A DNA stretch of 64,000 nt, from assembly GCA_963664875.1 (NCBI GenBank), contig OY761611.1, forward strand, positions 3,424,001 through 3,488,000, given 5' to 3'. Under the pieces are notes generated by a model that saw only the letters and a program-made list of their open reading frames with translations, was not told the DNA's origin and did not search any database. Shown here one piece after another: positions 2,936-19,983 of the stretch. Each line of letters begins with the position of its first letter. The stretch's first letter is position 1. Both the position numbers and the translations under genes were made by a program. Source of the DNA: Candidatus Kapaibacterium sp. GTDB taxonomy: Bacteria > Bacteroidota > Ignavibacteria > Kapaibacteriales > UBA2268.

Positions 2936-3700
2936 CTATTTGAAATATGTATAATAAAAATCATATCGTTTTTGAATGGCACCTTTAGAATCCGAAATAA
3001 TTTCGGCTTTGAGTTTTCCGGTGGTGTCATAAATGTATGAGTATATTTTGTTTACATTGCCATTCTGATCTATTTTATAAAACTTTATAGATTGATCTGC
3101 AGAATAAACAATACTGTCTTTTAGTACATTTGCATTAGGAATGTTGTCGCCTGTGACTATAATATCATAAGATATCCCTGTCAAATTGCCCGAAGTATTA
3201 TATTCGTTGTTGTAGTTTTTGATAGTAGATACACCTTTCTTCAAGTCTTCCTGTACGGTTTTGATTAAATCACCCTTTTGGTTGTAATCGAAACTCCAGC
3301 TTTCTTCAAGCTCACCATCGCTGTCGTATTGCTTTTTCTCAACTATCTTCGAATTAGTGTATCGATACTTGATCTTGAAATTTTCAGATACAAAGCCGTT
3401 GTTGTCATATTTAAAGTGAATTTCAGTAGATTGGTCGTCTTGGTATGTGTAAACAGATTTTGTAGCTGTGTCTGCATCTTTGTTAAACTCTACAAAAAGC
3501 AGGATATTGCCGGCTTTGTCAAATTCTTTGTAATATACTTTGTGTTCTTTAGATAAAGTGAGCAAATCAGATTCCCACTTCTCTTCACTTTGTATAACAT
3601 CCGGAGTGTACGCAGGATTTATCGGATTGTCCGGCATATTACATGCTGCTAATAAACACACAGCACACACAAAAATACTATTTAATATTTGTTTACTCAT
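2936..3700 (-). CDS. Hypothetical lipoprotein with YD-like repeats
   Basis: Lipobox LAAC; repeated YDxxG/YNxxG motifs. Confidence 0.65.
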   Translation of the reverse strand: MSKQILNSIFVCAVCLLAACNMPDNPINPAYTPDVIQSEEKWESDLLTLSKEHKVYYKEFDKAGNILLFVEFNKDADTATKSVYTYQDDQSTEIHFKYDNNGFVSENFKIKYRYTNSKIVEKKQYDSDGELEESWSFDYNQKGDLIKTVQEDLKKGVSTIKNYNNEYNTSGNLTGISYDIIVTGDNIPNANVLKDSIVYSADQSIKFYKIDQNGNVNKIYSYIYDTTGKLKAEIISDSKGAIQKRYDFYYTYFK

Positions 3701-3804: not shown

Positions 3805-4932
3805 TTATATATTAATGTCGAAATCATCTGCATTGAAACCGTAATTTTCTATCCAGTATTCTTTAGTAAAAGTTATTTTCCCGGAATTTAATAAATCAAG
3901 ATCGCGTTTCCAAATACTCGCCATATTGCTGTTTAACCTGATAATTGAAAAAATAGGCTGAGCAATATCTCCAAAATTTAGATGTATTAGCATTACTATC
4001 AAGTCGTTTAATATCTTTTCTACTAAGCTGATGTCCGAATGAATTATTTCTTCTCTCACTTTATAATGTGTTTCTGCTGCTGCTAACGAACCACCATCTA
4101 ATTCTGTGGTAAGTGTTTGAGACAATAGTGCTTTTGATATTTCCGAATTACAATGCCTGATTAGCAGGTGAAAGAGCTCCGCCGAATTTGCTTTATTCGT
4201 ATCGTGTATTGTGATTGTTATATCCTCAGGGGTTACTGCAACGCTTTCGTCAGCCATCTCGCTCAGTAACTCGGCAAGATTCATTATTTCTTCCTGTGAG
4301 GCACCTCTCTGATACTGTGCCACCACAAAAGGCATCCCAAATTTTTCAATATAATTTACCCAAAAACGCATACTACCGGATTTGAAAGTAACAGGCCAAA
4401 AGCATTTTGCAAGTAGCGATTCTCCATAATGCCTTGCTGCACTTTGTTCATATATCGCTGCAAGGAATTTATACTCGGGCAAGGATTGAGCCTCGCCACC
4501 GCCGGGACTTCTGAAATACATATTTCCATCGCCTCCAATGTCGAAATATTCCTGCGGTCGGGCTTCAATCTTCTTAGGAATATATTTTCCTTCTTTCTTT
4601 TCCCACATAATTTCTAAAACCTGAAATCCATAAAGAGGTGCGTCGAGTATGTTTCTTATTATAGCCTGCAAATCTAACTTTGCAAAAACATCTTTCACAA
4701 ATGCGAATACATCTTTGTCTGAATTTTCCTGCCTTATTTGAGTTTCTAAAGCAAGAACGCCTGCTTTTCTGGATTGGATGCAGCTACGGACGTGCGGATC
4801 ATTTGTAAGATTTCGTACAGCTTCATAGCCTTTGTTTCTTAGTATTTTATCGGGATTAGGCAGCATTCCGAGATGCTTAAAGAAGCTGAGCGAGCCACTC
4901 CTGCTTACAAGTTCTTTGGTTAGTGATTTCAT
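3805..4932 (-). CDS. Mu gp29-like phage portal protein (DUF935)
   Basis: LPNPDKIL, DPHVRSCIQSRK, LDAPLYGFQVLEIMW, FWVNYIEKFGMP, EISKALLSQTLTT, GSLAAAETH. Confidence 0.9.
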   Translation of the reverse strand: MKSLTKELVSRSGSLSFFKHLGMLPNPDKILRNKGYEAVRNLTNDPHVRSCIQSRKAGVLALETQIRQENSDKDVFAFVKDVFAKLDLQAIIRNILDAPLYGFQVLEIMWEKKEGKYIPKKIEARPQEYFDIGGDGNMYFRSPGGGEAQSLPEYKFLAAIYEQSAARHYGESLLAKCFWPVTFKSGSMRFWVNYIEKFGMPFVVAQYQRGASQEEIMNLAELLSEMADESVAVTPEDITITIHDTNKANSAELFHLLIRHCNSEISKALLSQTLTTELDGGSLAAAETHYKVREEIIHSDISLVEKILNDLIVMLIHLNFGDIAQPIFSIIRLNSNMASIWKRDLDLLNSGKITFTKEYWIENYGFNADDFDINI

Positions 4933-5367
4933 TTATTTCTCCATAGATTTGATTGCATAACCTGATATTATTCCACCCAAAATTATTAGCGGATCCTGCC
5001 ACCAAGGGCGTTTGGCTATTGATGATTGATTAAAATTGATGTGATGAGTAATTATAGTGTCCTGCTGTCTGGCTATATGCATTGATAAAATATTATCGGG
5101 GAAAGTATAATAACAGCGGACAGTGTCTCGTTTGATTATAGTATCTATTGTCGCAACGAAAGGTCTTGTTTGTATGATAGTATCTCTAATATAGCGGATT
5201 TCAGTTTTTACATTTTCTAGGATGATTGGCTCGGGAGTTACAATTTCAATAATGGTGTCTCTTATTATTCTTACATCACCTTGGTTCCCGGGCGGCTCAT
5301 TTGCAAATATGTAAAACAAAAGCAGACCTATTATTACACCGGCAAAAGCAATTGTTACCTCTTTCAT
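4933..5367 (-). CDS. Phage-associated membrane protein with DT(I/V) repeats (possible spanin-like lysis accessory)
   Basis: N- and C-terminal hydrophobic segments; repeated RDTI/IDTI; position in the phage operon. Function is inference. Confidence 0.5.
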   Translation of the reverse strand: MKEVTIAFAGVIIGLLLFYIFANEPPGNQGDVRIIRDTIIEIVTPEPIILENVKTEIRYIRDTIIQTRPFVATIDTIIKRDTVRCYYTFPDNILSMHIARQQDTIITHHINFNQSSIAKRPWWQDPLIILGGIISGYAIKSMEK

Positions 5368-6116
5368 ATTTTAACTCCATAATCTATAACTATTCCAAGA
5401 GTAAGGTAGTGAGCCGGCAATTCGTTATCTTTAATAAGAAGTGAGAGTGTATCACCAGAATTCAACGGCATCTCTGTTACCGAAATCTCGCCACGACCAC
5501 GCAGGATATGCAAATCTTCATAAAGCATGGAATCATTCAAAAGCAAATCACAATAAAGACTATTTCCTTCTTTCAAAGAATAGTAGATAGATACAATCTT
5601 AGGTGAAATATCATTTGGCAGACAAGGGAATATATCCGGCAGACGTAACCTCTCACCGGACTGCAGATTTATTACTCCGTCATAAGTAAAATGACAAATC
5701 CTCTGCAAACGCACTTTCTTTTCAGACGGCATTAAAGCCTGAGCAGGAACATACTTCTTAGAATAACTATCGCTACTGTCTTCAATAAGTAAAACATCCT
5801 CCGGCTCAATCTCCGGCTTACTCTCAAAAGTAATAAAGTCGCCGGACAACCTGTTTAGCTGCCTAAGATTGTCAACATTGGTGAGTCCGATCTGCTCTTT
5901 AGTAACATTATGTAGATTGTTTGTATCAGTCAAATGTAGAGTAAGATTCGGATTTTTATACTCGTAAACCATATCATGGTGATGTTCCACATCTGCTTTT
6001 GAATCAAGTGCGTCTGCAAGGTCGCTTTGGCTAGACAAAACGCCTGTTATTTCGCCCCATTTCGAGATTATTTCCACTTCCTCGGATTGTGGATAAGGTA
6101 TGTATCTGATTGGCAT
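5364..6116 (-). CDS. Phage fibre-like structural protein
   Basis: WGEITGVLSSQSDLADALDSKADVEHHHD and HNVTKEQIGLTNVDN resemble phage fibre repeat motifs. Confidence 0.55.
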   Translation of the reverse strand: MPIRYIPYPQSEEVEIISKWGEITGVLSSQSDLADALDSKADVEHHHDMVYEYKNPNLTLHLTDTNNLHNVTKEQIGLTNVDNLRQLNRLSGDFITFESKPEIEPEDVLLIEDSSDSYSKKYVPAQALMPSEKKVRLQRICHFTYDGVINLQSGERLRLPDIFPCLPNDISPKIVSIYYSLKEGNSLYCDLLLNDSMLYEDLHILRGRGEISVTEMPLNSGDTLSLLIKDNELPAHYLTLGIVIDYGVKI

Positions 6117-6117
6117 T

Positions 6118-6468
6118 TTATCGCTCCTCTAAGTATAAAACTGCATCTAAATTTCCGTTAGTAATACTGTTATTTATATATCGGATGCGGAAGAATTTAC
6201 TAACGCTGTTCAGTATTGCTATTTCTGCATTGCTACGGTTATTCGTGTTGTCCACATCAATCAATGCTCCCACAGAGAAAGAGAGGCGGTCATTGGAAAA
6301 CTCAATGGAAACTATACCATCAGGTGTGCCTTTTACTTCGCTCCAGCTAAGTTGAAGTGAAACAGCTATATATTTAGATTTACCACTGATATTTTTATCA
6401 GCTGTTTCAAACCACTTAGTCTCAAAAGATTCCGCCATTGAAGCATTTTTGCACATATATTTAAGCAT
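6118..6468 (-). CDS. Hypothetical beta-rich phage protein (116 aa)
   Basis: ATG at 6468 follows GAGGTGG and overlaps the upstream stop; ends FFRIRY...LYLEER one base before the next gene. Confidence 0.6.
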   Translation of the reverse strand: MLKYMCKNASMAESFETKWFETADKNISGKSKYIAVSLQLSWSEVKGTPDGIVSIEFSNDRLSFSVGALIDVDNTNNRSNAEIAILNSVSKFFRIRYINNSITNGNLDAVLYLEER

Positions 6469-7030
6469 TATCCACCTCTGTGGAAAAGCCAACAAGCCCA
6501 AGCAACCGCAATCTCCCGAATATATGATACAAATTCCTTCTTTGCCTGAATACACCTTCTTTATTGCCTTTCTTTGTATTGAAAGCGATTGTGCGAACCC
6601 AGCCGGATCTTTCAGTTTTATATATCCTCTCAACATGACCTCGCCAGGAGCCGGGCAGTCGCCATATTATTAAATCATGTTTCTGTGGGGCAGCTCTTGT
6701 TCGCTTCCCATGTTTCTTTGCATAAGTAAAGAGTTTTGTAGCAACGCCTGTTTTAGGAATTGGAATATCACTTTTATCTTGCGCAGCTCGAGCAAAGCAA
6801 TAATATACTCCTGCTGCACAGTAAGCACTGCCCCTCGGCAAACCCATATAATCAGTGTATTTCTCAACTGCCCCGAGATTCTGGCCGCTTTCGAGCGTTC
6901 CTGCCTGTAACATTGCAGTATCAAGAGATGCTTCGAGTAGATATTGTTTACATGGAATTGTGTATCTCTCAAATGCAAAAGCGCTTGCAGAAAGCGTTAG
7001 CATTAATATTATTTTGAATAAGATTTTCAT
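6461..7030 (-). CDS. CHAP-domain peptidoglycan hydrolase (endolysin-like) with signal peptide
   Basis: N..GAVEKY, AYCAAGVYYC (Cys) and GHVE (His); signal peptide ending ASAFA. Confidence 0.75.
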   Translation of the reverse strand: MKILFKIILMLTLSASAFAFERYTIPCKQYLLEASLDTAMLQAGTLESGQNLGAVEKYTDYMGLPRGSAYCAAGVYYCFARAAQDKSDIPIPKTGVATKLFTYAKKHGKRTRAAPQKHDLIIWRLPGSWRGHVERIYKTERSGWVRTIAFNTKKGNKEGVFRQRRNLYHIFGRLRLLGLVGFSTEVDNA

Positions 7031-7129
7031 AGTGTTTGTTCCTTCTTTGAATAGTAAAATTTTATTTGATAGACCTAATTAGGAAAAAGGTTTCGATTGT
7101 TTACTTTCTTCCATAGATATTATTTCAAT

Positions 7130-7283
7130 TTCCCCTCCTGAGCGATGTGCTGAGCGAGCAACGCGAGTCGAAGTAGGGTGCGTGAGCGAAGCGAGGGCGG
7201 GGTGGAAAAACACGAAGCACAATATTTAGTGCAAGTAGTCTGTTTTTCTATTTACTTAACTTTGTCGATTGTTTTTTTCAGGT
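7130..7283. repeat. REP/MITE-like palindromic element (half element with nested insert)
   Basis: TTCCCCTCCTGAG[CGATGTGCTGAGCGAGCAACGCGAGTCGAAGTA]GGGTGCGTGAGCGAAGCGAGGGCGGGGTGG; related to the copies at 10528, 12770 and 14484. Confidence 0.8.
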
Positions 7284-7317
7284 CAGAGATATAAAAAACA
7301 TTATCATTTTTCTCTCC

Positions 7318-7641
7318 TTACTGCACAAAATAAACTCCCAATATTATCATGCCCACAGAGAGATGCACCCCCAGAGCCATTTGACCGAAATTTAAATCAG
7401 GAAGAAGTGCTTTGAGTAAGGATGCAGAGCGGTATATTAGCCAAAGGCAGAAAAGTTCTGCGAGTAGGACTATCAGCATGGTTTTTAGCTCTGCAAGACT
7501 TGGGAATGCAAAAAGTAGTAGCATTAGCCCAACGATAAGTAATAATATTTCTATCAGATATTCTCTGATTTTGCCCCAAAGAGACCGGGCGAGTTGCCCG
7601 ATCCCTACGGAGATGCTATTCAAGATATTTTTTAAATTCAT
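7318..7641 (-). CDS. Small multi-pass membrane protein, putative holin
   Basis: Three hydrophobic segments; immediately upstream of the CHAP hydrolase. Confidence 0.5.
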   Translation of the reverse strand: MNLKNILNSISVGIGQLARSLWGKIREYLIEILLLIVGLMLLLFAFPSLAELKTMLIVLLAELFCLWLIYRSASLLKALLPDLNFGQMALGVHLSVGMIILGVYFVQ

Positions 7642-8065
7642 CGAGAGTCTCCTTGTCAAATGTGATTGTTTTGTTGTCTTTATTGCTGAGTATCAGGGAG
7701 GTTTCAGTTTCTTCTTCTATAATTATTTCTTTCTGTTTTGGCAAATCTACCTTGCATGCCTTAATGTCTCTAAGGAGCTGGAGTGCATTTAGCTTTCGCC
7801 ACACTACGGCATTGGGAACACCTGCGTCTGAATAGGCATAATCATATAAATATGCTATGGTCAGGTCAACCGAGAGCTTCTTTACAAGCATATCCGGGAG
7901 AGTCAGTGGCAACTCATAGCGAGAACCAATCATGCTATCAATGATGGAATCTGCATAGTCCCTATGTCTTTGGAGTTGTGCCTGATCGAAACCTCCACCG
8001 CAAAGTGTCGCAAGCTCCTGATAGGAATATTCGAGCAACAAATCATTTTCGTCTGAGTAAGGCAT
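7616..8065 (-). CDS. Mu gp36-like head-completion protein (DUF1320)
   Basis: MPY..DL, ADSIIDSMIGSRYELPL, LSVDLTIAYLY, ALQLLRDI...VDL. Confidence 0.85.
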   Translation of the reverse strand: MPYSDENDLLLEYSYQELATLCGGGFDQAQLQRHRDYADSIIDSMIGSRYELPLTLPDMLVKKLSVDLTIAYLYDYAYSDAGVPNAVVWRKLNALQLLRDIKACKVDLPKQKEIIIEEETETSLILSNKDNKTITFDKETLDEFKKYLE

Positions 8066-8075
8066 ATTAGCTCCT

Positions 8076-8417
8076 CTATATTGCTAAGCGAACTTTGATT
8101 ATTGCTGCGCCTGTACACGTACTAAGTGCATAAGCGTTCACAATCTCGCCTGCGTCTGCTACCTTTGCCTTTCCGGTTGCGTCGCTGCTTAGTGCATCGC
8201 CTCTTGCTATTGCTTCGCTTGATTCTACGAGCATTGTGCCGAGAGTTTCTATAGTTGCCTGCCTGTCTATGGTAGCAGCAAGTGATGTAACACCTAAAGC
8301 TCTTTCGCCAAGTCCGCAGATTCCACTTAAATAATTTACAAATCTAAACTGTGGTATGTCTTCTGCTGCCTTAATGCTGATAGTCAAAGCTGAGTGATAT
8401 GTTTCTGTACTAATCAT
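8076..8417 (-). CDS. Capsid cement/decoration protein (DUF2190-like)
   Basis: AAEDIPQFRFV, ALGV, VESSEAIARGDALSSDATGKA; follows the major capsid gene. Confidence 0.8.
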   Translation of the reverse strand: MISTETYHSALTISIKAAEDIPQFRFVNYLSGICGLGERALGVTSLAATIDRQATIETLGTMLVESSEAIARGDALSSDATGKAKVADAGEIVNAYALSTCTGAAIIKVRLAI

Positions 8418-8429
8418 TTGTCTGCCTCC

Positions 8430-9374
8430 CTATGCGTGGAAATTAGTGTTTGCGATTAAAAAGCCGGCATCTTTGCCTGTTACCTGTACTGAGTAGTTGT
8501 CTGTAGCACGAATTACTTTCACTTTGCCACCGTTTTCGTAGTAAGTATCTACTTCCGGCATTCCTTTTCTTCGGAATGTGTATCCAAACGAAGGGTTGTA
8601 TTCTGAGCGGCGAGGGGACTGATCTACATACGCGAATATTATATTATCGCCCCAAATGTCTTCCATACTTACTCCATCGGGTGAGTAAACTGAGGTGCCG
8701 ACTATAATATTTTCGATATTATAAACCTCTTTGACAAGCTCGGCATTTACTGTAAAATTATTTGTATAACGGATTTTGTTTGTCATACTATTGTGGTTCA
8801 GTATTTTTCTCAGAGTAACATCGCCCATAATCATAACATTCGGATATTTTCCTATTTTGCTGCGTATGGCATCTTTTGCTATATTGACCCATGTTTCAGT
8901 GTCCGCATTGCTTGTTGGAGCATATATCGAATCTGCCTCTGAGCTGATTACCAGTTTCATATCATCATCGTAGTTGGCAGGGTTTTGTACTAAATCTGCC
9001 GCCGCCTTTTCTCTGCCGGTTAGAAGTATATCGAGAAGTTCCTTTGTGCTGCGCTGTTCATAGCGGAAAAACTCGCTGCTTTCTTCTTCTTCGAGATAGT
9101 CCAAAGCTATCTCTACATCTCTTTCGTGTGTCTCGAAATCCATTAATACAATTTCTTCAGGAGGTATGCGGTTGGAGGCAGCTCTCAAAGCTCGCTCTGT
9201 GTCTCGCATTACAAAAGAGTTTTTAGAAAAAACAGGGATTTTGCCTTTCATTTTATTTACATCGACAGTAGGGAAGAGCTTATGAGCTATGAAAGCATTA
9301 TTTGTATAGCCCTGAGCTATTGTGGTCAAAACGGGATCGACCATGCGAAGAGAATCTAATCTTGTGTTGGACAT
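8430..9374 (-). CDS. Major capsid protein (Mu-like head module)
   Basis: RMVDPVLTTIAQGYTN..FIA..LFP.V.V, DIWGDN, PSFGYTF; 314 aa between the protease and cement genes. Confidence 0.85.
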   Translation of the reverse strand: MSNTRLDSLRMVDPVLTTIAQGYTNNAFIAHKLFPTVDVNKMKGKIPVFSKNSFVMRDTERALRAASNRIPPEEIVLMDFETHERDVEIALDYLEEEESSEFFRYEQRSTKELLDILLTGREKAAADLVQNPANYDDDMKLVISSEADSIYAPTSNADTETWVNIAKDAIRSKIGKYPNVMIMGDVTLRKILNHNSMTNKIRYTNNFTVNAELVKEVYNIENIIVGTSVYSPDGVSMEDIWGDNIIFAYVDQSPRRSEYNPSFGYTFRRKGMPEVDTYYENGGKVKVIRATDNYSVQVTGKDAGFLIANTNFHA

Positions 9375-9389
9375 TATTTTGTTTCCTTG

Positions 9390-10235
9390 TTAAAATGTGT
9401 AATTTGTTGCGGAAAGGATTACTGCCTCCTCGTAGCTGAGAGAAGCGTCTTGCGTTTGTAGAGCTTTTGCCTGTCTGTGCAAATCGAGCCTTTCGGGAAG
9501 AACATCTGCATCGTCAAATTCATCGTTATATGATTTAGTAAAGTCAAATTGTATATCAACTTTATCCGGTTTGATAGAGCTGAACATATTTCGGGTGTGT
9601 TCGAGCAAATCTGTTTCGTTCTTTTTGTCATATTGAAAAACAAGCTCGAGCAAGTCCTCGACAACAGTACGATGAGCCGGATTAATCTTAAGCCCCTGAT
9701 TAATATCAGTAAGCGACTCGGCAAAAGCTGCGAACTCACGTCTTCGCATATTAAGCTCTAAGCCTTCGATTTGCTCACGCAATTCCATATTTTCGCGCTC
9801 TGCCTCAGAAAATTGGCTACCCTCAAGCTCCACTTCCGAATATTCAGTTATATCAGAAAACTGCACAGGTTGCAAACCCTTCACCGCCGGAGAGGCAGCT
9901 CCCAAAAAGCCCACATGACGCAAAAGCATATCAGGGTAAAGAGCGATAGACACCTTTTTGTATCTACCACGCCTGATTTCTTCGGCAAACTCCGCATTCA
10001 TATCTTTAACTTTAGCGAGAAGAGTATCATTTCTGCGAGCAAGTCGCGCTACCCAGCCATAAGCCGGTGAGTCAGTTTTGGGATGTCCTTTGACTATCGG
10101 AGCAAGAAAAGCATCGCTACTTTCCGTCCGTGAATTGTAAGCATAAGCGATAGCATCTAAGCTGCCTGCGTTATACTCTTTAGTGTTGCCGGCAGAGTCA
10201 GTATGCCGACCGGTTTTAAAAACTTCTATCCACAT
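9390..10235 (-). CDS. Mu I-like prohead protease/scaffold
   Basis: WIEVFKTGRHTDSAG, APIVKGHP, PAYGWV, YKKVS, LRHVGFLGA.SPAVKGL; C-terminal coiled coil ending SYEEAV. Confidence 0.88.
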   Translation of the reverse strand: MWIEVFKTGRHTDSAGNTKEYNAGSLDAIAYAYNSRTESSDAFLAPIVKGHPKTDSPAYGWVARLARRNDTLLAKVKDMNAEFAEEIRRGRYKKVSIALYPDMLLRHVGFLGAASPAVKGLQPVQFSDITEYSEVELEGSQFSEAERENMELREQIEGLELNMRRREFAAFAESLTDINQGLKINPAHRTVVEDLLELVFQYDKKNETDLLEHTRNMFSSIKPDKVDIQFDFTKSYNDEFDDADVLPERLDLHRQAKALQTQDASLSYEEAVILSATNYTF

Positions 10236-10470
10236 AAATATGTACCTTGTAAATGATAAAAAATGAGCTGCAGCTTTTATTTCAAATACAAAGTACATTT
10301 TACTCAGACTATAAAAAGAAAAGCATTTTTAAAATATTTTATAAACCATTTAAAAAATAAATAGTGAGCAAATCAAAATATTAAGTATAATATTTAATAC
10401 AATACGAACACAAGAGTTGTAAATTTGTACTATAGAAGATAGATAATCACTTAGTAATTTGTTGCAAAAA

Positions 10471-10860
10471 AGAGCCTGAAAGGCTCAAAGCAAATAGCAA
10501 AAGTCTTATTGCAAAGAATAAAAAAAATTCCCCTCTTGAGCGATGTGCTGAGCGAGCACAGCGAGTCGAAGTAGGGTGCCCTGAAAGGGCGGGGTGGAAA
10601 AGAACCTTATATCTACCACTACTCTAAAAAATATATCGCCGAAGTTATTTATATAGAAAACATACTGCATACTCTGAAAATTTGTGCTTCGTGTGTTTCC
10701 ACCCCGCCTCACCTTCGGTGAGCCACCCCTCAAGAGGGGAATGGTGAGGGTTTTGGCTCAAAATATTAGAGAAAGAGCCTGAAAGGCTCAAAACAATTAG
10801 CCCGGGGCAGCGCCCCGGGAAAAGAAACGTCCACACCCTCGTTTTCTATACCGAGCTAAG
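10471..10860. repeat. Cluster of palindromic repeats, including a MITE-like element 10528-10741 with terminal inverted repeats
   Basis: GAGCCTGAAAGGCTC at 10472 and 10775; TTCCCCTCTTGAG...CCCCTCAAGAGGGGAA; TTAGCCCGGGGCAGCGCCCCGGG. Confidence 0.85.
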
Positions 10861-10918: not shown

Positions 10919-12766
10919 ATGAAACAACTTATACTATTTATCTTACTCGTGCCGGTGCTGCTAAATGCCGAACTCTATGAAGGCTCTGACTCATTAAAGC
11001 CTAAAAAGGAATATACATATAAAGCAAAAGGTGGTTTAGATATTGACCCTAATCTACTTGAGGACTTAATTCCTGACGACCCTCGAATAAAGTTTGCTAC
11101 TTATTTCTGTGGTTCAGGTGGAGATGCTGTTATGGATTTACAAATTGACTCTGAAGGAAATATATTAGCTATTGGAAATACTATGAGTGACGATTTGCCA
11201 ATGGTTGGTAACTCTTTTGCCACTGATAAAGGAATTTGGATAGATGCTTTTATTGTCAAATTTGACACGTTGGGTTTCCCTATTTGGAGTACATATTTTG
11301 GAGGCAAAGGAGAAGACAGAGGTATTAGATTAGAAGTAGATTCGAAGGATAATATTATTATTGCAGGCGCTACTAATTCTGCAAATTTTCCTCTAAAAGG
11401 AGAATTTGACCAAGACAGTATAAAAGGCGAAGCTGATATTTACATAGCAAAATTTGATAAAGACGGAAACTTGCTTTGGAGTAGATTGTTTGGTGGCAGT
11501 GGATTAGATCAGTCTTTTGGTCTTGCAATTGATGCTGATGATAACATATATGTTGCCGGTAATACTATGAGTACAGATATTGTCAGAAGCGACTGGACTT
11601 ACCAGCCTGAATATGCTTATTATTATAAAAATTTTGCAACATATTCTGATGGAGTGTTTGCAAAATTCAGTCCAAGTGGCAAACATATTTGGTCAAGTTA
11701 TTTGGGTGCTGGAGAAACAGAACACTTAGAAGACATCGATGTTTATAATGATGAAATTACTGTTGTAGGCAGAGTTTCTGCAAATTTTGCACATCCTAAA
11801 ATTAATCCAAGATATATTCGCGGAACTGAAGACGCTATTCAACAAGTACCTTGTGATACATTTTATTATGAAAACTACACACCTTACGATCCATTTATAG
11901 CAAAATTTTCAACCGACAGTTGTAAGCTTAAATACTTTACGTATTACTGTACTGAGGCTAAAAGATTTAATCCAAGTGATAATTATTATTATTTTTCCGA
12001 TTATGATGCAAGAGGCAACTATATATTAGTAATTAATGCTGACAACTTCATGCAAGTCAAAGGTTCTCCTTTTAAGACATATAACGAAAAAGAAATTGGA
12101 GGGGTTATGATGCTTTCTCTTAGTCAAGAAAATATAGCCAATTGGGATTGGGACATTTGTGCTGGACGTGGATTTACAGATGTAGCTTTTCATATTGATA
12201 ATAATATTTTTTGGGGGGATGTCACAGCATACAAAGATCTCTTTCCGGAAGATGATAGACATATTAATAATAGAGAAAGTGCTATTCAAAGATCACCTTT
12301 GTTTATGAGATTTGACTTAAAAAACTACACTCAATGGTATTCTTACCATCCTCACTTTAATGCAGATTCTAAACTTATATCAAAAGATAATATTGTTTAC
12401 CTTATGGCGAGATCCCATGATTACCATATTCTTAAAAATGCTTATTCAGAACAATATTATCCTTATTCTTTATATTTTATGAATTTTGATATGAGAGAAG
12501 ATTTTGGTTACTCAAGTATTGAGACAGGGACTAATTATAGCTCAAATATCTATGTTTATCCTACAATAGCTATGGAATCTATCACTATATCCTCAGAGGA
12601 TTCCATAAATCAAATTCAAATCTATGATTTACTCGGTAAGCAATTATATTCACAAGATTTGAAACTCCCATTAAACGAGTTAGAAATAAATGTAGAGAAC
12701 TATGCAGACGGAATGTACTTCATTCTGTTAAATAATAAATACTTTTTTAAATTTATTAAGGAGTAA
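10919..12766 (+). CDS. T9SS type A sorting domain protein with SBBP beta-propeller repeats
   Basis: Signal peptide; repeated TYFGG.G.D...IDS.GNI..AG.T.S.DFP-type units; C-terminal VYP...IYDLLGK...GMYF...KFIK. Confidence 0.88.
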   Translation: MKQLILFILLVPVLLNAELYEGSDSLKPKKEYTYKAKGGLDIDPNLLEDLIPDDPRIKFATYFCGSGGDAVMDLQIDSEGNILAIGNTMSDDLPMVGNSFATDKGIWIDAFIVKFDTLGFPIWSTYFGGKGEDRGIRLEVDSKDNIIIAGATNSANFPLKGEFDQDSIKGEADIYIAKFDKDGNLLWSRLFGGSGLDQSFGLAIDADDNIYVAGNTMSTDIVRSDWTYQPEYAYYYKNFATYSDGVFAKFSPSGKHIWSSYLGAGETEHLEDIDVYNDEITVVGRVSANFAHPKINPRYIRGTEDAIQQVPCDTFYYENYTPYDPFIAKFSTDSCKLKYFTYYCTEAKRFNPSDNYYYFSDYDARGNYILVINADNFMQVKGSPFKTYNEKEIGGVMMLSLSQENIANWDWDICAGRGFTDVAFHIDNNIFWGDVTAYKDLFPEDDRHINNRESAIQRSPLFMRFDLKNYTQWYSYHPHFNADSKLISKDNIVYLMARSHDYHILKNAYSEQYYPYSLYFMNFDMREDFGYSSIETGTNYSSNIYVYPTIAMESITISSEDSINQIQIYDLLGKQLYSQDLKLPLNELEINVENYADGMYFILLNNKYFFKFIKE

Positions 12767-12769
12767 AAC

Positions 12770-13029
12770 TTCCCCTCTTGAGGGGTGCGTGAGCGAAGCG
12801 AGGGCGGGGTGGAAAAGAACCTTATATCTACCACTACTCTAAAAAATATATCGCCGAAGTTATTTATATAGAAAACATACTGCATACTCTGAAAATTTGT
12901 GCTTCGTGTGTTTCCACCCCGCCTCACCTTCGGTGAGCCATAGCTCGAGAGGGGAATGATCAGCTAAGGTCACTGCATCTCGACTCATTTTATTCGCTCG
13001 ATAACCGCGAGTGTAACGAGTCGAAGTGC
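12770..13029. repeat. Second copy of the MITE-like element (12770-12957) plus a 58-bp hairpin repeat (12972-13029)
   Basis: Interior matches 10585-10725; the hairpin ACTGCATCTCGACTC...GAGTCGAAGTGC recurs at 14690 and 16189. Confidence 0.88.
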
Positions 13030-13072
13030 GGGCTGAAAAAACAAAAAAACACAAACACAAGGATAAATAATT

Positions 13073-14404
13073 ATGCAAAAAATTCTAATACTAATATTTC
13101 TAACACTTGTATTTCCCGACAAGGAAGCATATAGCCAAACAGAAGATGTTGTGTGGCTAAAAGAAAATTTCTATTTGGAAGAGTTTAAATTCCATCCTAC
13201 TCAGGATATTTTTACTTCTTTCAATCAGTATTGGAAGGGTTTAAAAATATTTGATAAAATGACAGGTGATTCGATTGGTATGTTTCCTATGGGCGACTCG
13301 GTAAGAGGGCTGCAATATACTTTTAATACGGACGGCTCTTTGCTGGCTAGTTTCAGTTGTCCTGGTGTCATTCGTTTATGGAATTTTGAAACGAAGGAAC
13401 AAATGATTGAGTCAAGCATTGAATATTTACTTGATGCAGATTTAAAGAAGAATTTCTATGTTGGCTCTATCGATATATCTAATGATAATAAATATATTGC
13501 ACTTGGACTTTTTGGAGCTGGTTTTGTAGTATTTGATATTGAAAAAAATAAAGTTATAAAACATCAGTATTGGGAATATGATCATCCCAAATGGGGAAAA
13601 TCATTTATGGGAAGTGACTACGTAGAAATTAGTCCGGATAATAATTTAGTATTAGTTATTAGAAACCCGGCAGACAATATGCCTCAAATGATATTTTTAT
13701 ATAATATCAAAAAAAACAAAACAGAATATTTTGATATGGGATCGCATGCGATATTTTCTCCTACAGATAATGTCATGTATTATTTTAGAGATGCTTATGA
13801 TGATCAAACAGGAGAAGTGAAAAGTCTTGGTAGGTATTACGTAAATTTTGATATCAGTGATGAACCTATCAAAAGCCCTGCTAGTTTGTCAGATTGTGTT
13901 TTCTCCTTTGATGGAAAATTTATTGTTGTAAGATCAAAAATGTATTATGAAAGCATATTCTATCAACCTTACATATATAAAACTGATGATTTGTATAACT
14001 TTGCTTACAAAAGACCTTTTAATGATGTGTTCAAAATTGGAAGATGTATTTTAGATTACTCAAACAATTTTATATTGGGTGGTTCAAATCAAGGATTAGC
14101 TTTGTTAGATTTAAAAGGTGTGTTAACTTCAGCCAAAGAGGATATTAATGATAGCATAAAAATATTCCCAAATCCTGCAAATAAAACCATAACAATAAAA
14201 ACATATATAGAACATACCGGTTTACTCAAAATTGAAATTCAGAATATAGATGCTTCCATAAATCAGACTTTAAAAAAAGAAATTGTAGAAGTAGGTGAAT
14301 ATTCAGAAGAATTTGATATTAGTGCGATGCCACAAGGTACTTACTTCATTACTCTTGAGTTTTCAGGTCAAACAGAGAGTAGAAAAATTGTGGTGGTGAG
14401 GTAG
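13073..14404 (+). CDS. WD40-like beta-propeller protein with T9SS type A sorting domain (copy 1)
   Basis: Signal peptide; FHP/FNTDG/ISND/ISPD/FSP blades; C-terminal IFPNPA...GTYF...KIVVVR. Confidence 0.85.
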   Translation: MQKILILIFLTLVFPDKEAYSQTEDVVWLKENFYLEEFKFHPTQDIFTSFNQYWKGLKIFDKMTGDSIGMFPMGDSVRGLQYTFNTDGSLLASFSCPGVIRLWNFETKEQMIESSIEYLLDADLKKNFYVGSIDISNDNKYIALGLFGAGFVVFDIEKNKVIKHQYWEYDHPKWGKSFMGSDYVEISPDNNLVLVIRNPADNMPQMIFLYNIKKNKTEYFDMGSHAIFSPTDNVMYYFRDAYDDQTGEVKSLGRYYVNFDISDEPIKSPASLSDCVFSFDGKFIVVRSKMYYESIFYQPYIYKTDDLYNFAYKRPFNDVFKIGRCILDYSNNFILGGSNQGLALLDLKGVLTSAKEDINDSIKIFPNPANKTITIKTYIEHTGLLKIEIQNIDASINQTLKKEIVEVGEYSEEFDISAMPQGTYFITLEFSGQTESRKIVVVR

Positions 14405-14427
14405 AAATCAATTACGAATTTTAGTGG

Positions 14428-14747
14428 GAGCCTGAAAGGCTCGAAGCAAATAGCAAAAGTCTTATTGCAAAGAATAAAAAAACTTCCCCTCTTGAGCGAT
14501 GTGCTGAGCGAGCATAGCGAGTCGAAGTAGGGTGGAAACAAACGAAGCACAAATTTAAACAACATAAAAAATATAAATTAAATAGATAAGTTTAGCGATA
14601 CTATTTTCTGGGGCAGTGATTTGGATAAGATATTTATCCACCTCGTCTTACCTTCGGTGAGCCATCGCTCGAGAGAGGGGAATGGGCAGACTGCATCTCG
14701 ACTCATTTTATTCGCTCGATAACCGCGAGTGTAACGAGTCGAAGTGC
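14428..14747. repeat. Palindromic repeat cluster between the duplicated genes
   Basis: 14428-14534 nearly matches 10472-10578; inverted ends at 14484 and 14682; 58-bp hairpin at 14690-14747. Confidence 0.85.
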
Positions 14748-14789
14748 GGGCTGAAAAAACAAAAAACACAAACACAAGGATAAATAATT

Positions 14790-16121
14790 ATGCAAAAAAT
14801 TCTAATACTAATATTTCTAACACTTGTATTTCCCGCCAAGGAAGCATATAGCCAAACTGAAGATGTTGTGTGGCTTAAAGAGGGAGTTAATTTGAATGAG
14901 TTTAAATTCCATCCTACTCAGGATATTTTTACTTCCTTCAATGAGTATTGGAAGGGGTTAAAAATATTTGATAAAATGACTGGGGATTCTATAGGAATGT
15001 TTCCTATGGGCGACTCGGTAAGAGGGCTGCAATATACTTTTAATACGGACGGCTCTTTGCTGGCTAGTTTCAGTTGTCCTGGTGTCATTCGTTTATGGAA
15101 TTTTGAAACGAAGGAACAAATGATTGAGTCAAGCATTGAATATTTACTTGATGCAGATTTAAAGAAGAATTTCTATGTTGGCTCTATCGATATATCTAAT
15201 GATAATAAATATATTGCACTTGGACTTTTTGGAGCTGGTTTTGTAGTATTTGATATTGAAAAAAATAAAGTTATAAAACATCAGTATTGGGAATATGATC
15301 ATCCCAAATGGGGAAAATCATTTATGGGAAGTGACTACGTAGAAATTAGTCCGGATAATAATTTAGTATTAGTTATTAGAAACCCGGCAGACAATATGCC
15401 TCAAATGATATTTTTATATAATATCAAAAAAAACAAAACAGAATATTTTGATATGGGATCGCATGCGATATTTTCTCCTACAGATAATGTCATGTATTAT
15501 TTTAGAGATGCTTATGATGATCAAACAGGAGAAGTGAAAAGTCTTGGTAGGTATTACGTAAATTTTGATATCAGTGATGAACCTATCAAAAGCCCTGCTA
15601 GTTTGTCAGATTGTGTTTTCTCCTTTGATGGAAAATTTATTGTTGTAAGATCAAAAATGTATTATGAAAACATATTCTATCGACCTTACATATACAAAAC
15701 TGATGATTTGCATCACTTTGCATACAAAAGACCTTATAATGATGTTTTTACAATCGGAAGATGTATTTTAGATTACTCAAACAATTTTATATTAGGTGGT
15801 TCAAATCAAGGATTAGCATTATTAGATTTAAAAGGTGTTTTAACTTCAGCCAAAGAAGATGCTAATGATAGCATAAAAGTATTCCCAAATCCTGCAAATA
15901 AAACCATAACAATAAAAACAGATATAGAACATACCGGTTTACTCAAAATTGAAATTCAGAATATAGATGCTTCCATAAATCAGACTTTAAAAAAAGAAAT
16001 TGTAGAAGCAGGTGAATATTCAGAAGAATTTGATATTAGTGCGCTGCCACAAGGTACTTACTTCATTACTATTGAGTTTTCAGGTCAAACAGAAAGTAGA
16101 AAAATTGTGGTGGTGAGGTAG
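14790..16121 (+). CDS. WD40-like beta-propeller T9SS protein (copy 2, tandem duplicate)
   Basis: 443 aa, same length and nearly identical to 13073-14404. Confidence 0.85.
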   Translation: MQKILILIFLTLVFPAKEAYSQTEDVVWLKEGVNLNEFKFHPTQDIFTSFNEYWKGLKIFDKMTGDSIGMFPMGDSVRGLQYTFNTDGSLLASFSCPGVIRLWNFETKEQMIESSIEYLLDADLKKNFYVGSIDISNDNKYIALGLFGAGFVVFDIEKNKVIKHQYWEYDHPKWGKSFMGSDYVEISPDNNLVLVIRNPADNMPQMIFLYNIKKNKTEYFDMGSHAIFSPTDNVMYYFRDAYDDQTGEVKSLGRYYVNFDISDEPIKSPASLSDCVFSFDGKFIVVRSKMYYENIFYRPYIYKTDDLHHFAYKRPYNDVFTIGRCILDYSNNFILGGSNQGLALLDLKGVLTSAKEDANDSIKVFPNPANKTITIKTDIEHTGLLKIEIQNIDASINQTLKKEIVEAGEYSEEFDISALPQGTYFITIEFSGQTESRKIVVVR

Positions 16122-18009: not shown

Positions 18010-18045
18010 GCAGCTTTTTGAAAATCTTAGATTTTCTTACATTAG

Positions 18046-18119
18046 TACGCCAGAAAGGATTCGAACCTTTGGCCTACAGCTTAGAAGGCTGTTGCTCTAT
18101 CCAGCTGAGCTACTGGCGC
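18046..18119 (-). tRNA. tRNA-Arg(TCT)
   Basis: Reverse complement GCGCCAGTAGCTCAGCTGGATAGAGCAACAGCCTTCTAAGCTGTAGGCCAAAGGTTCGAATCCTTTCTGGCGTA; anticodon loop CTTCTAA; CCA not encoded. Confidence 0.96.
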
Positions 18120-18202
18120 GTCATTTAATGTGATACAAACTTACGGCTTTTTTGAATTACATGCAAGAAAAAAAATATTTTTTTTATACGTTATTTTTTG
18201 CT

Positions 18203-18232
18203 TGCATTGTATCGATTATTGCCGTATATTTG
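18203..18232 (+). promoter_or_regulatory. Putative promoter of the SRP RNA
   Basis: TTGCAT-16 nt-TATATT(TG) just upstream of ffs. Confidence 0.45.
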
Positions 18233-18247
18233 TATCATAAATTTTTG

Positions 18248-18340
18248 GTCAAGCCCTTTGTGGTTAAGTCAAACCCAATCCCGCCAGGTCCGGAAGGAAG
18301 CAACGGTAAGTTTCGTCTTAAGGCACAAAGTAAGCTTGGC
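18248..18340 (+). ncRNA. ffs: Signal recognition particle RNA (4.5S)
   Basis: Domain IV motif CAGGTCCGGAAGGAAGCAAC; closing stem GTCAAGC/GCTTGGC followed by a T-tract. Confidence 0.92.
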
Positions 18341-18517
18341 TTTTTTTTTATATTTACAAACCTAACAAATAAATCCCCAATTTAATAAAGTAAATCCCCA
18401 ACTTTATCAAGCAAATTCCTCAAAATATCATCGGCAATAATAGCACAGATAAAAAATTTGCTATATTGCAAACAAATCTCAACTTGAAAGATTATTTGGA
18501 AAAGATAAGAAAATCAG

Positions 18518-19981: not shown

Positions 19982-19983
19982 CC

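What the first reader, a model, noticed from the sequence alone, without database searches (positions are those of the whole stretch)
3805..10235. Intact, stand-alone Mu-like head plus lysis operon: candidate domesticated capsid or GTA-like system
Seen: ten tightly packed co-oriented genes (protease/scaffold, major capsid, cement, gp36 adaptor, holin-like, CHAP hydrolase, small protein, fibre-like, membrane protein, portal). None has an obvious frameshift, and both flanks are host-type genes. I recognise no terminase, gp30/F protein, tail tube/sheath/tape measure, transposase, integrase, repressor or replication gene in the window. Known: in Mu the portal precedes the protease and capsid genes and sits beside the terminase; gene transfer agents are domesticated phage modules often split across loci. 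Inference: keeping head and lysis genes intact while losing the rest fits a host-maintained particle better than random prophage decay. It could be a GTA-like, tail-less or helper-dependent capsid.
Basis: partly seen in the sequence, partly recalled or inferred. Interest (0 to 1): 0.8.

Follow-up and report, generated by a model that had tools for sequence, protein, structure and literature searches.

The report
Family-wide domesticated tail-less phage capsid
A ten-gene phage head and cell-lysis operon, working with a DNA-packaging motor gene 318 kb away, has been kept intact across a whole family of uncultured Bacteroidota-group bacteria, so it is probably a host-owned, tail-less capsid particle similar to a gene transfer agent.

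Summary
Window 3805-10235 (minus strand) holds ten intact, co-oriented genes: protease/scaffold, major capsid, cement, gp36 adaptor, a 3-TM protein, a secreted CHAP hydrolase, a jelly-roll protein, a fibre-like protein, a 2-TM protein and a C-terminally short Mu-type portal. Host genes flank both sides.

New here:
- The complete 3.83-Mb genome has one intact orphan large terminase 318 kb away. I found no tail, tape-measure, Mu F or small-terminase gene.
- The operon, in the same gene order, occurs in about 113 of 130 species genomes of the family (51 of 55 genera). The record titles of relatives read Candidatus Kapaibacterium/Kapabacteria. Outside the family, 3 of 194 sampled genomes of the class have weaker, prophage-grade matches.
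- The orphan terminase is present in 116 of 130 genomes and is missing together with the operon in at least three genera.
- All genes show dN/dS below 1.
- The domesticated copies form one clade, apart from complete related siphophage-type prophages in the same hosts.

Best reading: an anciently domesticated, tail-less, DNA-packaging capsid with its own lysis genes, like a GTA but lacking a tail. Particle formation, cargo and delivery are untested, because every genome is a MAG. I found no published description.

The parts
10289..10295 (-). Promoter-like TACTTTG element about 54 nt upstream of the protease start
   Evidence: The surrounding block TACTTTGTAnTTGA...GCTGCAGC is conserved upstream of the operon in the 4 genus genomes compared. 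That it matches the Bacteroidota -7 consensus TAnnTTTG is recalled, not tested.
9390..10235 (-). Head maturation protease fused to a scaffold-like C-terminal part (281 aa from the conserved ATG)
   Evidence: phrog_976 E 4.8e-54, matching residues 20-160. In 71 of 81 loci. dN/dS 0.11 in the closest pair. Shorter than in related prophages: 395-440 aa there against a median of 304 aa here.
8430..9374 (-). Major capsid protein (314 aa)
   Evidence: phrog_1005 E 3.9e-83. PDB 3bjq E 4.5e-36. Profile match in 116 of 130 family genomes. dN/dS 0.05.
8076..8417 (-). Cement/decoration protein (113 aa)
   Evidence: PF09956 E 6.9e-10. phrog_673 E 4.4e-21. In 69 of 81 loci. dN/dS 0.08.
7616..8065 (-). Mu gp36-type head-tail adaptor (149 aa)
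   Evidence: PF07030 E 2.9e-14. phrog_195 E 4.5e-17. In 70 of 81 loci. dN/dS 0.11.
7318..7641 (-). Small membrane protein with three hydrophobic helices; holin-like by size and topology only (107 aa from the conserved Met)
   Evidence: Sequence. No family match. In 54 of 81 loci. dN/dS 0.37. Missing together with CHAP and TM2 in 2 loci. The holin role is an inference.
7121..7222 (.). Copy of a dispersed GC-rich repeat of about 90 bp, inserted in the spacer between the TM protein and CHAP genes; not part of the system
   Evidence: blastn of spacer 7031-7317 gives 24 further hits in the genome. The spacer is about 35-105 nt in three genus relatives, by the tblastn match ends.
6461..7030 (-). Secreted CHAP-type peptidoglycan hydrolase (189 aa, with an N-terminal signal-like segment)
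   Evidence: PF05257 E 2.5e-5, 25.1 bits against a 26-bit cut-off. C71 in 66/66, H132 in 64/66 and E134 in 65/66 relatives. 33% identical to the endolysin-annotated protein of a related prophage. dN/dS 0.50.
6118..6468 (-). c7: small eight-stranded jelly-roll protein (116 aa); probable capsid decoration or sugar-binding protein
   Evidence: AF2 model with pLDDT 94.4. Best solved matches are phage capsid accessory chains (8cjz_A TMq 0.66, 9in6_c, 7dou_4) and CBM32 modules, all at E about 1e-3. BFVD top hit E 3.8e-7, TM 0.73. In 56 of 81 loci. dN/dS 0.08.
5364..6116 (-). Fibre-like protein with an HxH-type repeat (250 aa); sits in a hypervariable slot
   Evidence: Short N-terminal matches to tail-fibre PHROGs. 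Weak match (E 1e-4) to a 369-aa fibre-like protein of a related prophage. The slot between c7 and TM2 is 0-3.4 kb, holds many unrelated ORF clusters and is empty in 11 of 56 loci. dN/dS 0.22.
4933..5367 (-). TM2: protein with N- and C-terminal membrane helices around a small beta-sheet with repeated DT(I/V) motifs (144 aa)
   Evidence: Alignment A3. AF2 model with pLDDT 80.6. No convincing fold match and no PDB sequence match. In 57 of 81 loci. dN/dS 0.14. A role in lysis or envelope disruption is an inference.
3805..4932 (-). Mu-type portal protein lacking the C-terminal 110-150 residues (375 aa)
   Evidence: PF06074 E 6.9e-87. The only Portal_Mu match in the genome. Aligns to residues 70-354 of solved portals of 512-526 aa and to residues 1-380 of a 489-aa prophage portal. 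Median length 375 aa in 61 ORFs of the portal cluster from 60 loci, including fragments. dN/dS 0.04.
2936..3700 (-). Co-oriented lipoprotein gene directly downstream of the portal; genus-specific neighbour, membership uncertain
   Evidence: Found next to the portal only in the five genomes of this genus. No family match. dN/dS 0.16.

Best explanation
This is an anciently domesticated remnant of a siphophage with Mu-type head genes. The host lineage keeps it as a two-locus system. One locus is the ten-gene operon in the window, which encodes capsid assembly, capsid decoration, the portal vertex and cell lysis. The other is an orphan large terminase at G000:C1:3745611-3747038.

Proposed working (inferred, not shown):
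- The protease/scaffold and major capsid protein build a procapsid on the short portal.
- The terminase pumps DNA into it. That DNA is probably host DNA, because no small terminase or other specificity factor is recognisable.
- The gp36 adaptor closes the portal vertex.
- The cement and jelly-roll proteins decorate the shell.
- Where present, the variable fibre-like proteins give surface binding.
- The 3-TM protein, the secreted CHAP hydrolase and the 2-TM protein lyse the producer cell and release tail-less, DNA-filled capsids.

How the DNA would reach another cell is open. The capsids might dock onto free tails of the related phages that infect this family, as cf-PICI capsids do. There might be a tail-independent route. 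Or the capsids might serve a purpose other than transfer.

Shown here: gene content, gene integrity, distribution, purifying selection, a single clade of the domesticated copies, and absence of recognisable tail genes. Inferred: every step of particle formation, cargo, release and delivery.
For: 1. Anatomy. There are ten intact head, portal and lysis-type genes. There is one full-length TerL: Terminase_6N E 2.2e-13 plus Terminase_6C E 1.5e-6 and phrog_38 E 1.1e-99. It has GKS and IIDD motifs in its sequence (the motif meaning is recalled). It lies between host genes.

2. No tail or accessory packaging genes found in the complete genome.
- tblastn with 50 proteins of three related loci (two complete prophages and the linked operon of G007) hit only the operon and TerL, plus two unrelated sites matching the C-terminal part of the prophage lipoprotein/endolysin.
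- HMM searches were negative for Mu F, PhageMin_Tail, sheath, HK97 capsid, phrog_991, phrog_26 and T4 gp19.

3. Distribution.
- MCP in 22/24, TerL in 23/24 and portal in 24/24 family relatives from 21 genera.
- Over all 130 family genomes, the MCP profile matches in 116 (92/100 high-quality genomes; 51/55 genera) and TerL in 118.
- In a class-wide sample, 3 of 194 non-family genomes match, all at 220-317 bits, against 470-530 bits for the 7 family genomes of that sample.

4. Same gene order across the loci of 80 species, and no ORF cluster outside the operon is shared by more than 8 loci.

5. Co-loss of the two unlinked loci. By my count: 109 genomes have both, 9 have neither (6 of these are at least 90% complete, in genera g46, g3 and g58), 7 lack only MCP and 5 lack only TerL.

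6. Purifying selection. dN/dS is 0.04-0.50 for all 10 genes and 0.08 for TerL in the one unsaturated pair. In the other pairs pN is 0.12-0.28 against saturated pS.

7. One origin. The domesticated MCP (support 99), portal (100) and TerL (84) each form a single clade, apart from prophage copies in the same hosts.

8. Linked ancestral form. TerL directly follows the portal in G007, L117 and L182, with nothing co-oriented after it in L117 and L182.

9. The 3-TM, CHAP and 2-TM genes are absent together in 2 of 57 loci that keep the capsid genes. This fits a separate lysis unit.

10. Precedent. Tail-less, DNA-filled cf-PICI capsids become infective on meeting free phage tails (abstract of 10.1101/2025.02.11.637232).
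Against: - There is no evidence of expression, particles or packaged DNA.
- Every genome in the family is a MAG.
- All described GTAs have tails (recalled). A tail-less particle has no known way of its own to inject DNA.
- No small terminase was found. The only TerS model tried rang in no control genome, so that negative is weak.
- Genome-level HMM searches can miss real genes. PF17289 was not found by the genome search, yet it is present in TerL when the protein is scanned. Divergent tail genes elsewhere are therefore not excluded.
- Deep congruence with the host tree is not shown. Spearman correlation of pairwise distances with rpoB is 0.49 for MCP, 0.26 for TerL and 0.12 for portal, and deep branches are unresolved in all trees. 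Transfer within the family cannot be excluded.
- Flanking genes are conserved only within sub-lineages.
- The portal lacks 110-150 C-terminal residues, and it is untested whether it still works.
- One species has an in-frame stop in the portal.
- Three genomes of genus g7 have only the N-terminal half of a domesticated-type TerL.
- The holin and envelope-disruption roles of the two TM proteins rest on topology alone.
Confidence: 0.6

Rival explanations
1. It is a complete, tailed GTA whose tail and small-terminase genes lie at other loci and are too divergent to recognise, as RcGTA is split over several loci.
For: - The system is already split: TerL is unlinked in 76 of 80 loci.
- Genome-level HMM searches missed a real Terminase_6C domain.
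- The gp36 adaptor is kept under selection, and its known role is to join a head to a neck and tail.
- RcGTA's multilocus genome appears as a title and abstract in the listing (PMC5026251).
Against: - tblastn with the tail, tape-measure and neck proteins of two related prophages found nothing in the complete genome.
- Six tail or neck HMMs were negative.
- In L117 and L182, where TerL still follows the portal, nothing co-oriented comes after it.
- No ORF cluster outside the operon recurs in more than 8 of 81 loci.
Confidence: 0.15
2. It is a capsid-based anti-phage or phage-parasitising system. It would be switched on by infection with the related Mu-head siphophages. Its capsids would compete for the phage's tails or its packaging, and its lysis genes would kill the cell early. 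Any gene transfer would be a by-product.
For: - Related complete prophages occur in the same family. Second, prophage-type copies were seen in 4 of the 24 relatives, and a prophage-type copy alone in G006. Further second matches appear.
- The adaptor is homologous to the prophage adaptor.
- No small terminase of its own was found.
- cf-PICIs set the precedent for stealing only tails (abstract).
Against: - No sensor, repressor or recognisable defence gene lies in or beside the operon. PADLOC was not searched.
- The genome with the window holds no recognisable prophage.
- The operon is kept in most species, whether or not a related prophage is seen.
Confidence: 0.12
3. It is a mobile satellite of the cf-PICI kind, or another selfish element, that spreads horizontally within the family rather than a host-owned system.
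For: - It has cf-PICI-like content: capsid, protease, portal, adaptor and TerL, without a tail (abstract).
- Its genomic neighbourhood differs between genera.
- Its distances correlate only weakly with rpoB distances.
Against: - No integrase, replication or excision gene, and no conserved flank.
- TerL is unlinked in most genomes, so the element could not package or move itself as a unit.
- Genomes carry one domesticated-type copy; second matches are prophage-grade.
- Shallow sister pairs match the rpoB tree.
- TerL sits beside the same glycosyltransferase in three genera.
- Only 3 short IMG/VR contigs hold it.
Confidence: 0.06
4. It is a decaying prophage remnant with no function.
For: - The portal and protease are shorter than in related prophages.
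- One species has a stop inside the portal.
- Tail, Mu F, TerS and replication genes are missing.
Against: - Intact in about 113 of 130 species.
- dN/dS is well below 1 for every gene, although synonymous sites are saturated within one genus.
- Gene order is conserved across 51 of 55 genera.
Confidence: 0.02

Closest known systems
Gene transfer agents (RcGTA-type of Alphaproteobacteria; also BaGTA, VSH-1, Dd1, VTA)
   Same: Both are phage-derived structural genes fixed in the host chromosome. Both are conserved across a whole clade under purifying selection, are split over unlinked loci, lack integration and replication genes of their own, and carry lysis genes.
   Different: - No tail, tape-measure, neck or small-terminase gene was found.
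- The head genes are Mu-type (Portal_Mu, gp36), not of the RcGTA family.
- The host is a Bacteroidota/Chlorobi-group lineage. My four searches turned up no GTA report for it.
- DNA transfer is untested.
Capsid-forming PICIs (cf-PICIs)
   Same: Both encode capsid, protease, portal, adaptor and terminase but no tail. cf-PICIs release tail-less DNA-filled capsids that later join free phage tails (abstract of 10.1101/2025.02.11.637232). This gives a precedent for how a tail-less capsid can deliver DNA.
   Different: - cf-PICIs are mobile islands with integration and replication functions, and they package themselves (recalled, plus the abstract).
- Here no integrase or replication gene was found, TerL is unlinked, and the element is fixed in nearly a whole bacterial family.
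Complete siphophage-type prophages with Mu-type head genes in the same bacterial family (second copy in G004, locus L094/L095; G006, locus L106)
   Same: They have homologous protease, MCP, cement, adaptor, CHAP-type hydrolase, c7-like protein, portal and TerL. The stretch from the protease to the CHAP gene is in the same order.
   Different: - The prophages also have TerS, a Mu F-like minor head protein, a full-length portal (489-506 aa), a longer protease/scaffold (395-440 aa), a tape measure and other tail genes. The G004 prophage also has primase and helicase genes.
- Their genes fall outside the clade of the domesticated copies.
Encapsulins (HK97-fold nanocompartments)
   Same: A host-owned HK97-fold shell derived from a phage capsid.
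   Different: Encapsulins have no portal, terminase, maturation protease or adaptor (recalled). The presence of these genes here points to DNA packaging rather than enzyme encapsulation.

Membership tests
Gene transfer agent | Phage-derived particle genes fixed in the host chromosome and inherited with the lineage under selection | tested here: met
   In about 113 of 130 family genomes and 51/55 genera. A single clade apart from prophage copies. dN/dS 0.04-0.50. Deep congruence with the host tree is not resolved.
Gene transfer agent | No means of its own to replicate, integrate or transfer itself | tested here: met
   No integrase or replication gene in the operon or in conserved flanks. TerL is unlinked in 76 of 80 loci.
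Gene transfer agent | Particles package fragments of host DNA with little or no sequence preference | not testable with these tools
   Intact TerL and portal suggest DNA packaging. The cargo is unknown.
Gene transfer agent | Particles deliver DNA to recipient cells | not testable with these tools
   No culture, no expression data and no virome data (one search listed no RNA run).
Gene transfer agent | Tailed particle, as in all described GTAs (recalled) | tested here: not met
   No tail, tape-measure, neck or tube gene was found by tblastn with related prophage proteins or by six HMMs. Divergent genes cannot be excluded.
cf-PICI / phage satellite | Integrase and replication/regulation module, with mobility between genomes | tested here: not met
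   None found in the window or in the flanks of 80 loci. Vertical pattern of inheritance.
cf-PICI / phage satellite | Own capsid, portal, adaptor and terminase, but no tail | tested here: met
Mu-type phage head module | Portal_Mu portal, gp36 adaptor, gpI-type protease/scaffold and Mu-type MCP | tested here: met
   PF06074 E 6.9e-87 and PF07030 E 2.9e-14. phrog_976 and phrog_1005.
Mu-type phage head module | Mu F-like minor head protein next to the portal, and terminase genes upstream of the portal | tested here: not met
   PF04233 has no match in the genome. tblastn with prophage Mu F-like proteins found nothing. The portal is last in the operon and TerL is 318 kb away.
Transposable (Mu-like) prophage | Mu-type transposase and transposition proteins | not tested
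   No dedicated search was made. The Pfam scan of the window shows only IS200-like and PDDEXK_2 transposase genes 19-28 kb away.

The most novel reading that the evidence does not exclude
A whole family of uncultured Bacteroidota-group bacteria maintains a tail-less gene-transfer particle. This would be a host-owned capsid that packages chromosomal DNA without a small terminase and is released by its own lysis cassette. It would reach recipients either by capturing free tails of the phages that infect the family, or by a tail-independent route that uses the hypervariable fibre slot. That would be the first GTA-type system in this phylum and the first one without a tail of its own.
Probability: 0.4. 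Interest if true: 0.9.

Novelty: new variant of a known kind. Interest (0 to 1): 0.78.

Why it matters
Only a handful of GTA families are known, none from the Bacteroidota/Chlorobi group, and all have tails (recalled). This is a capsid-only system kept for the whole history of a bacterial family (55 genera in the collection searched). It would show that hosts can domesticate just the head and packaging half of a phage.

It raises a concrete question: how does a tail-less, chromosomally fixed capsid benefit the host? The candidates are gene transfer through scavenged tails, defence against related phages, or export of DNA.

It is also a compact 11-gene set (ten operon genes plus TerL) that can be expressed in a laboratory host to test capsid assembly and TerS-independent DNA packaging. 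In addition, the hypervariable slot gives a natural series of candidate surface-binding proteins.

Tried and rejected
- RNA evidence: no RNA holder was listed among 21 public runs, so I did not lay reads.
- Shared regulatory motif upstream of the operon and of TerL: a candidate TAAAYGSTTTT-like word was no more frequent in the genome than chance (27 found, 26.7 expected) and did not mark either locus. I dropped it.
- Small terminase: tblastn with two prophage TerS candidates found nothing. phrog_6299 also found nothing, but it rang in no control genome either, so it says little. No conserved small ORF lies next to TerL in 20 loci.
- Profile searches of c7 and TM2 against PDB sequences gave nothing useful.
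- TM2 fold search gave only generic helical-hairpin matches at Z about 6, below the tool's own noise guide, and one weak BFVD row. No function was assigned from these.
- The ESM Atlas search for the fibre-like protein gave only unnamed viral clusters at 0.89-0.90 and an Mtd_N cluster at 0.86, which are leads only.
- The IMG/VR scan gave 3 short contigs (5-6.7 kb) and no complete phage with domesticated-type genes.
- Two weak Terminase_6N matches elsewhere in the genome were not followed up: 21.2 bits in a 1117-aa frame and 17.7 bits in a 670-aa frame.
- The first dN/dS runs were wrong for some genes, because stop characters were dropped during alignment and one frame was mis-set. Only one search is used.
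- Literature: four full-text searches found no paper describing this element or any GTA in Kapabacteria. PMC6563490 (passages read) proposes GTA-like domesticated head-tail elements in Thaumarchaeota, which is a different case.
- Complex prediction, read laying, the search for homologous proteins, the search of protein representatives and the PADLOC library were not used.

Full report
**What is in the window.** On the minus strand between 10235 and 3805 lie ten intact, closely spaced or overlapping ORFs.
- Pfam and PHROGs identify the head maturation protease/scaffold (phrog_976, E 4.8e-54), the major capsid protein (phrog_1005, E 3.9e-83), a cement protein (PF09956, E 6.9e-10), a Mu gp36 adaptor (PF07030, E 2.9e-14) and a Mu-type portal (PF06074, E 6.9e-87).
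- The CHAP domain match is just under its cut-off (25.1 against 26 bits).
- Four ORFs have no family match, or only a short fibre-like match.
The ATG at 10235 is the start conserved in the genus, and a TACTTTG element sits about 54 nt upstream of it.
- The small ORF after CHAP most likely starts at 6468, giving 116 aa, the usual length of its relatives.
- The 287-nt spacer between the 3-TM gene and CHAP holds a copy of a dispersed repeat. The spacer is short in relatives.
- The flanks are host genes, and the rest of the window is housekeeping: FtsK, fatty-acid synthesis, TonB/ExbBD.

**The rest of the genome.** The window lies in a complete 3.83-Mb single-contig genome.
- It has only one Portal_Mu match and no Mu F match.
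- It does have an intact 475-aa large terminase at 3745611-3747038, 318 kb from the operon. The evidence is Terminase_6N E 2.2e-13 and Terminase_6C E 1.5e-6 and phrog_38 E 1.1e-99.
- TerL stands alone between a divergent glycosyltransferase and an aminotransferase.
- tblastn with 50 proteins of three related loci (two complete prophages and the linked operon of G007) hit only the operon and this TerL, plus two unrelated sites matching the C-terminal part of the prophage lipoprotein/endolysin.
- Genome-level searches with PhageMin_Tail, sheath, HK97 capsid, phrog_991 (tape measure), phrog_26 (neck), T4 gp19 and phrog_6299 (TerS) were all negative.
- Two caveats apply. The genome-level search missed the Terminase_6C domain that the protein scan finds. 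The TerS model rang in no control genome.

**Distribution.**
- In 40 relatives, the MCP was found in 22 of 24 genomes of the same family (21 genera). The two misses are 81% and 89% complete. It was found in 0 of 16 genomes from ten other families of the order.
- The portal was found in 24 of 24 family genomes. Two outside genomes gave only very weak matches.
- TerL was found in 23 of 24 family genomes and in one outside genome, at 34% identity.
- Over all 130 species genomes of the family, an MCP profile matched in 116 (92 of 100 high-quality genomes; 51 of 55 genera). TerL matched in 118.
- I set aside matches of prophage grade (G006, G080) and the G129 fragment. That leaves about 113 genomes with a domesticated-type MCP, and 116 with a domesticated-type TerL once the prophage-grade G006 and G080 matches are set aside.
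- By my count from the two tables, 109 genomes have both, 9 have neither, 7 lack only the MCP and 5 lack only TerL. Six of the nine double-negatives are at least 90% complete and belong to genera g46, g3 and g58. So two unlinked loci were lost together at least three times. Related genomes are not independent, and assembly gaps contribute to the single misses.
- In an even sample of the class (201 genomes), all 7 family genomes matched. Only 3 of 194 others did, at 220-317 bits against about 470-530 bits in the 7 family genomes of that sample.
- A scan of one genome per species of the whole collection found 94 relatives, of which 80 were kept. Their record titles read Candidatus Kapaibacterium, Kapabacteria, or mixed labels for MAGs.

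**Conserved architecture.** I called ORFs in those 80 loci plus the window and clustered them.
- The order is PRO-MCP-CEM-G36-TM1-CHAP-c7-[slot]-TM2-POR.
- Cluster counts out of 81 sources: MCP 79, PRO 71, G36 70, CEM 69, CHAP 66, POR 60, TM2 57, c7 56, TM1 54. Many loci are cut by contig ends.
- No ORF cluster outside the operon occurs in more than 8 loci, and I saw no integrase next to the operon.
- The slot between c7 and TM2 ranges from 0 to 3.4 kb and holds many unrelated ORF clusters, including the window's fibre-like protein. It is empty in 11 of 56 loci.
- TerL is adjacent in only 4 of 80 loci: after the portal in L117 and L182, and after c7 in L186 and L188. It also follows the portal in genome G007. 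In L117 and L182 nothing co-oriented follows TerL.
- TerL lies beside the same glycosyltransferase in this genus and in two other genera.
- TM1, CHAP and TM2 are absent together in 2 of 57 loci that span G36 to the portal. tblastn with all TM1, CHAP and TM2 cluster members confirmed this.

**Selection and descent.**
- Within the genus (5 genomes, 10 pairs), synonymous sites are saturated (mean pS 0.63-0.76) while pN is 0.12-0.28.
- In the one unsaturated pair, dN/dS per gene is: portal 0.04, MCP 0.05, cement 0.08, c7 0.08, TerL 0.08, protease 0.11, gp36 0.11, TM2 0.14, fibre 0.22, TM1 0.37, CHAP 0.50.
- One species has an in-frame TAA at portal codon 247.
- The rpoB tree makes the family one clade (support 100).
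- The domesticated MCPs (99), portals (100) and TerLs (84) each form one clade, apart from the prophage copies found in the same hosts.
- Shallow groups agree with rpoB: the genus, G002+G003, G015+G016, G011+G020 (MCP only) and G005+G019.
- Deep branches are unresolved in all trees. Pairwise distances correlate only moderately to weakly with rpoB: Spearman 0.49 for MCP, 0.26 for TerL and 0.12 for portal.
- I therefore hold that a single old origin with mainly vertical descent is well supported. I cannot exclude some exchange within the family.

**Comparison with real relatives.** The second copy in G004 and the copy in G006 are complete prophages.
- They have TerS or a TerS-sized gene, TerL, a 489-506-aa portal, a Mu F-like protein, a 395-440-aa protease/scaffold, MCP, cement, adaptor, small neck-sized genes, a CHAP-type hydrolase and a tape measure. 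The G004 prophage also has primase, helicase and exonuclease genes.
- The domesticated form has lost TerS, Mu F, the neck genes, the tail and replication.
- It has a shorter protease/scaffold (median 304 aa) and a portal cut at about residue 380 of the prophage portal. That cut corresponds to losing everything after about residue 400 of solved 512-526-aa portals.
- The order of portal and TerL is inverted.

**The unknown genes.**
- c7 folds with high confidence (pLDDT 94.4) into an eight-stranded jelly roll. Its nearest solved matches are small accessory chains of phage capsids (8cjz_A TMq 0.66, 9in6_c, 7dou_4 cement) and CBM32 sugar-binding modules, all near E 1e-3. Its nearest predicted viral protein has E 3.8e-7 and TM 0.73. 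I read it as a decoration or sugar-binding protein, without proof.
- CHAP keeps Cys71 (66/66), His132 (64/66) and Glu134 (65/66) and has a signal-like N-terminus.
- TM1 has three hydrophobic helices.
- TM2 has a membrane helix at each end and a four-stranded sheet carrying repeated DT(I/V) motifs. It has no informative fold match.
- The fibre-like protein shares an HxH-containing repeat with a 369-aa prophage protein (E 1e-4).
- The lysis roles of TM1 and TM2 are inferences from topology, position and their joint loss with CHAP.

**Mechanism and rivals.**
- The most economical reading is a host-owned particle: a procapsid built on the short portal, filled by TerL, closed by gp36, decorated by cement and c7, and released by TM1/CHAP/TM2.
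- What it does after release is open.
- cf-PICIs show that tail-less, DNA-filled capsids can be released and later gain infectivity from free phage tails (abstract only). Related tailed phages do live in this family.
- The rivals are hidden tail genes, an anti-phage role, a mobile satellite and neutral decay. They are weighed in their own sections. Only neutral decay is clearly contradicted.

**Literature.** Four full-text searches found no description of this element or of any GTA in Kapabacteria. For those papers I saw only the search listings and abstract starts. I read passages of PMC6563490 and the abstract and outline of 10.1101/2025.02.11.637232. Statements about the known GTA families, encapsulins and TerL motifs are recalled, not taken from a call.

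**Limits.**
- All genomes are MAGs.
- There is no expression, particle or cargo evidence.
- Negative gene searches cannot exclude divergent genes.
- dN/dS rests on one unsaturated pair plus pN/pS in nine saturated pairs.
- ORF calls in relatives are from a simple longest-ORF script, so small genes such as TM1 can be missed.

Noticed in passing
window 7121-7222, 10525-10601 and 10626-10708: A GC-rich dispersed repeat of about 90 bp. One copy lies inside the operon's TM1-CHAP spacer and two lie in the intergenic region upstream of the operon. There are 24 further blastn hits across the genome. It may be a MITE- or REP-like element.
   Followed up: partly
window 34003-37950: Four tandem, near-identically scoring PDDEXK_2 (PD-(D/E)XK transposase family) genes, with a small transposase-like ORF at 36679-37005 between them.
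   Followed up: no
window 18045-23927: tRNA-Arg(TCT) at 18045-18119, followed by seven co-oriented ORFs (152-273 aa) with no Pfam or PHROG match, in the lowest-GC part of the window (0.30-0.36). Possibly an island.
   Followed up: no
window 28991-29443: An IS200-like Y1 transposase gene (PF01797, E 1.3e-28).
   Followed up: no
window 10919-16121: Three T9SS-sorted proteins (Por_Secre_tail) lie beside the operon. Two of them are 443-aa paralogues, at 13073-14404 and 14790-16121.
   Followed up: no
L226/L227 (G187:C1:2601500-2607300): A genome of another family of the same class has a separate head-only locus. TerL (453 aa) and a short portal (384 aa) lie divergent from protease-MCP-cement. No gp36, Mu F or tail was recognised. 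This may be a second, independent head-only element or a remnant.
   Followed up: partly
G010:C30:4195-4809, G085:C6:135563-136129, G084:C3:172721-173290: In three genomes of genus g7, the domesticated-type TerL match covers only the N-terminal (ATPase) half, in ORFs of 205-222 aa that are not at contig ends, while the capsid operon is kept. A fourth genome of the genus has a full-length TerL.
   Followed up: no
L114 (G002:C82), portal codon 247: An in-frame TAA splits the portal into ORFs of 246 and 120 aa in one species of the window's genus. This is either a sequencing error in a MAG or a recent inactivation.
   Followed up: no
L128 and L133: Two species keep PRO-MCP-CEM-G36-c7-POR but lack TM1, CHAP and TM2 altogether.
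   Followed up: partly
window 3805-10298 and G000:C1:3745611-3747038: The operon (GC 0.402) and TerL (GC 0.392) are somewhat richer in G+C than the genome as a whole (0.362).
   Followed up: no
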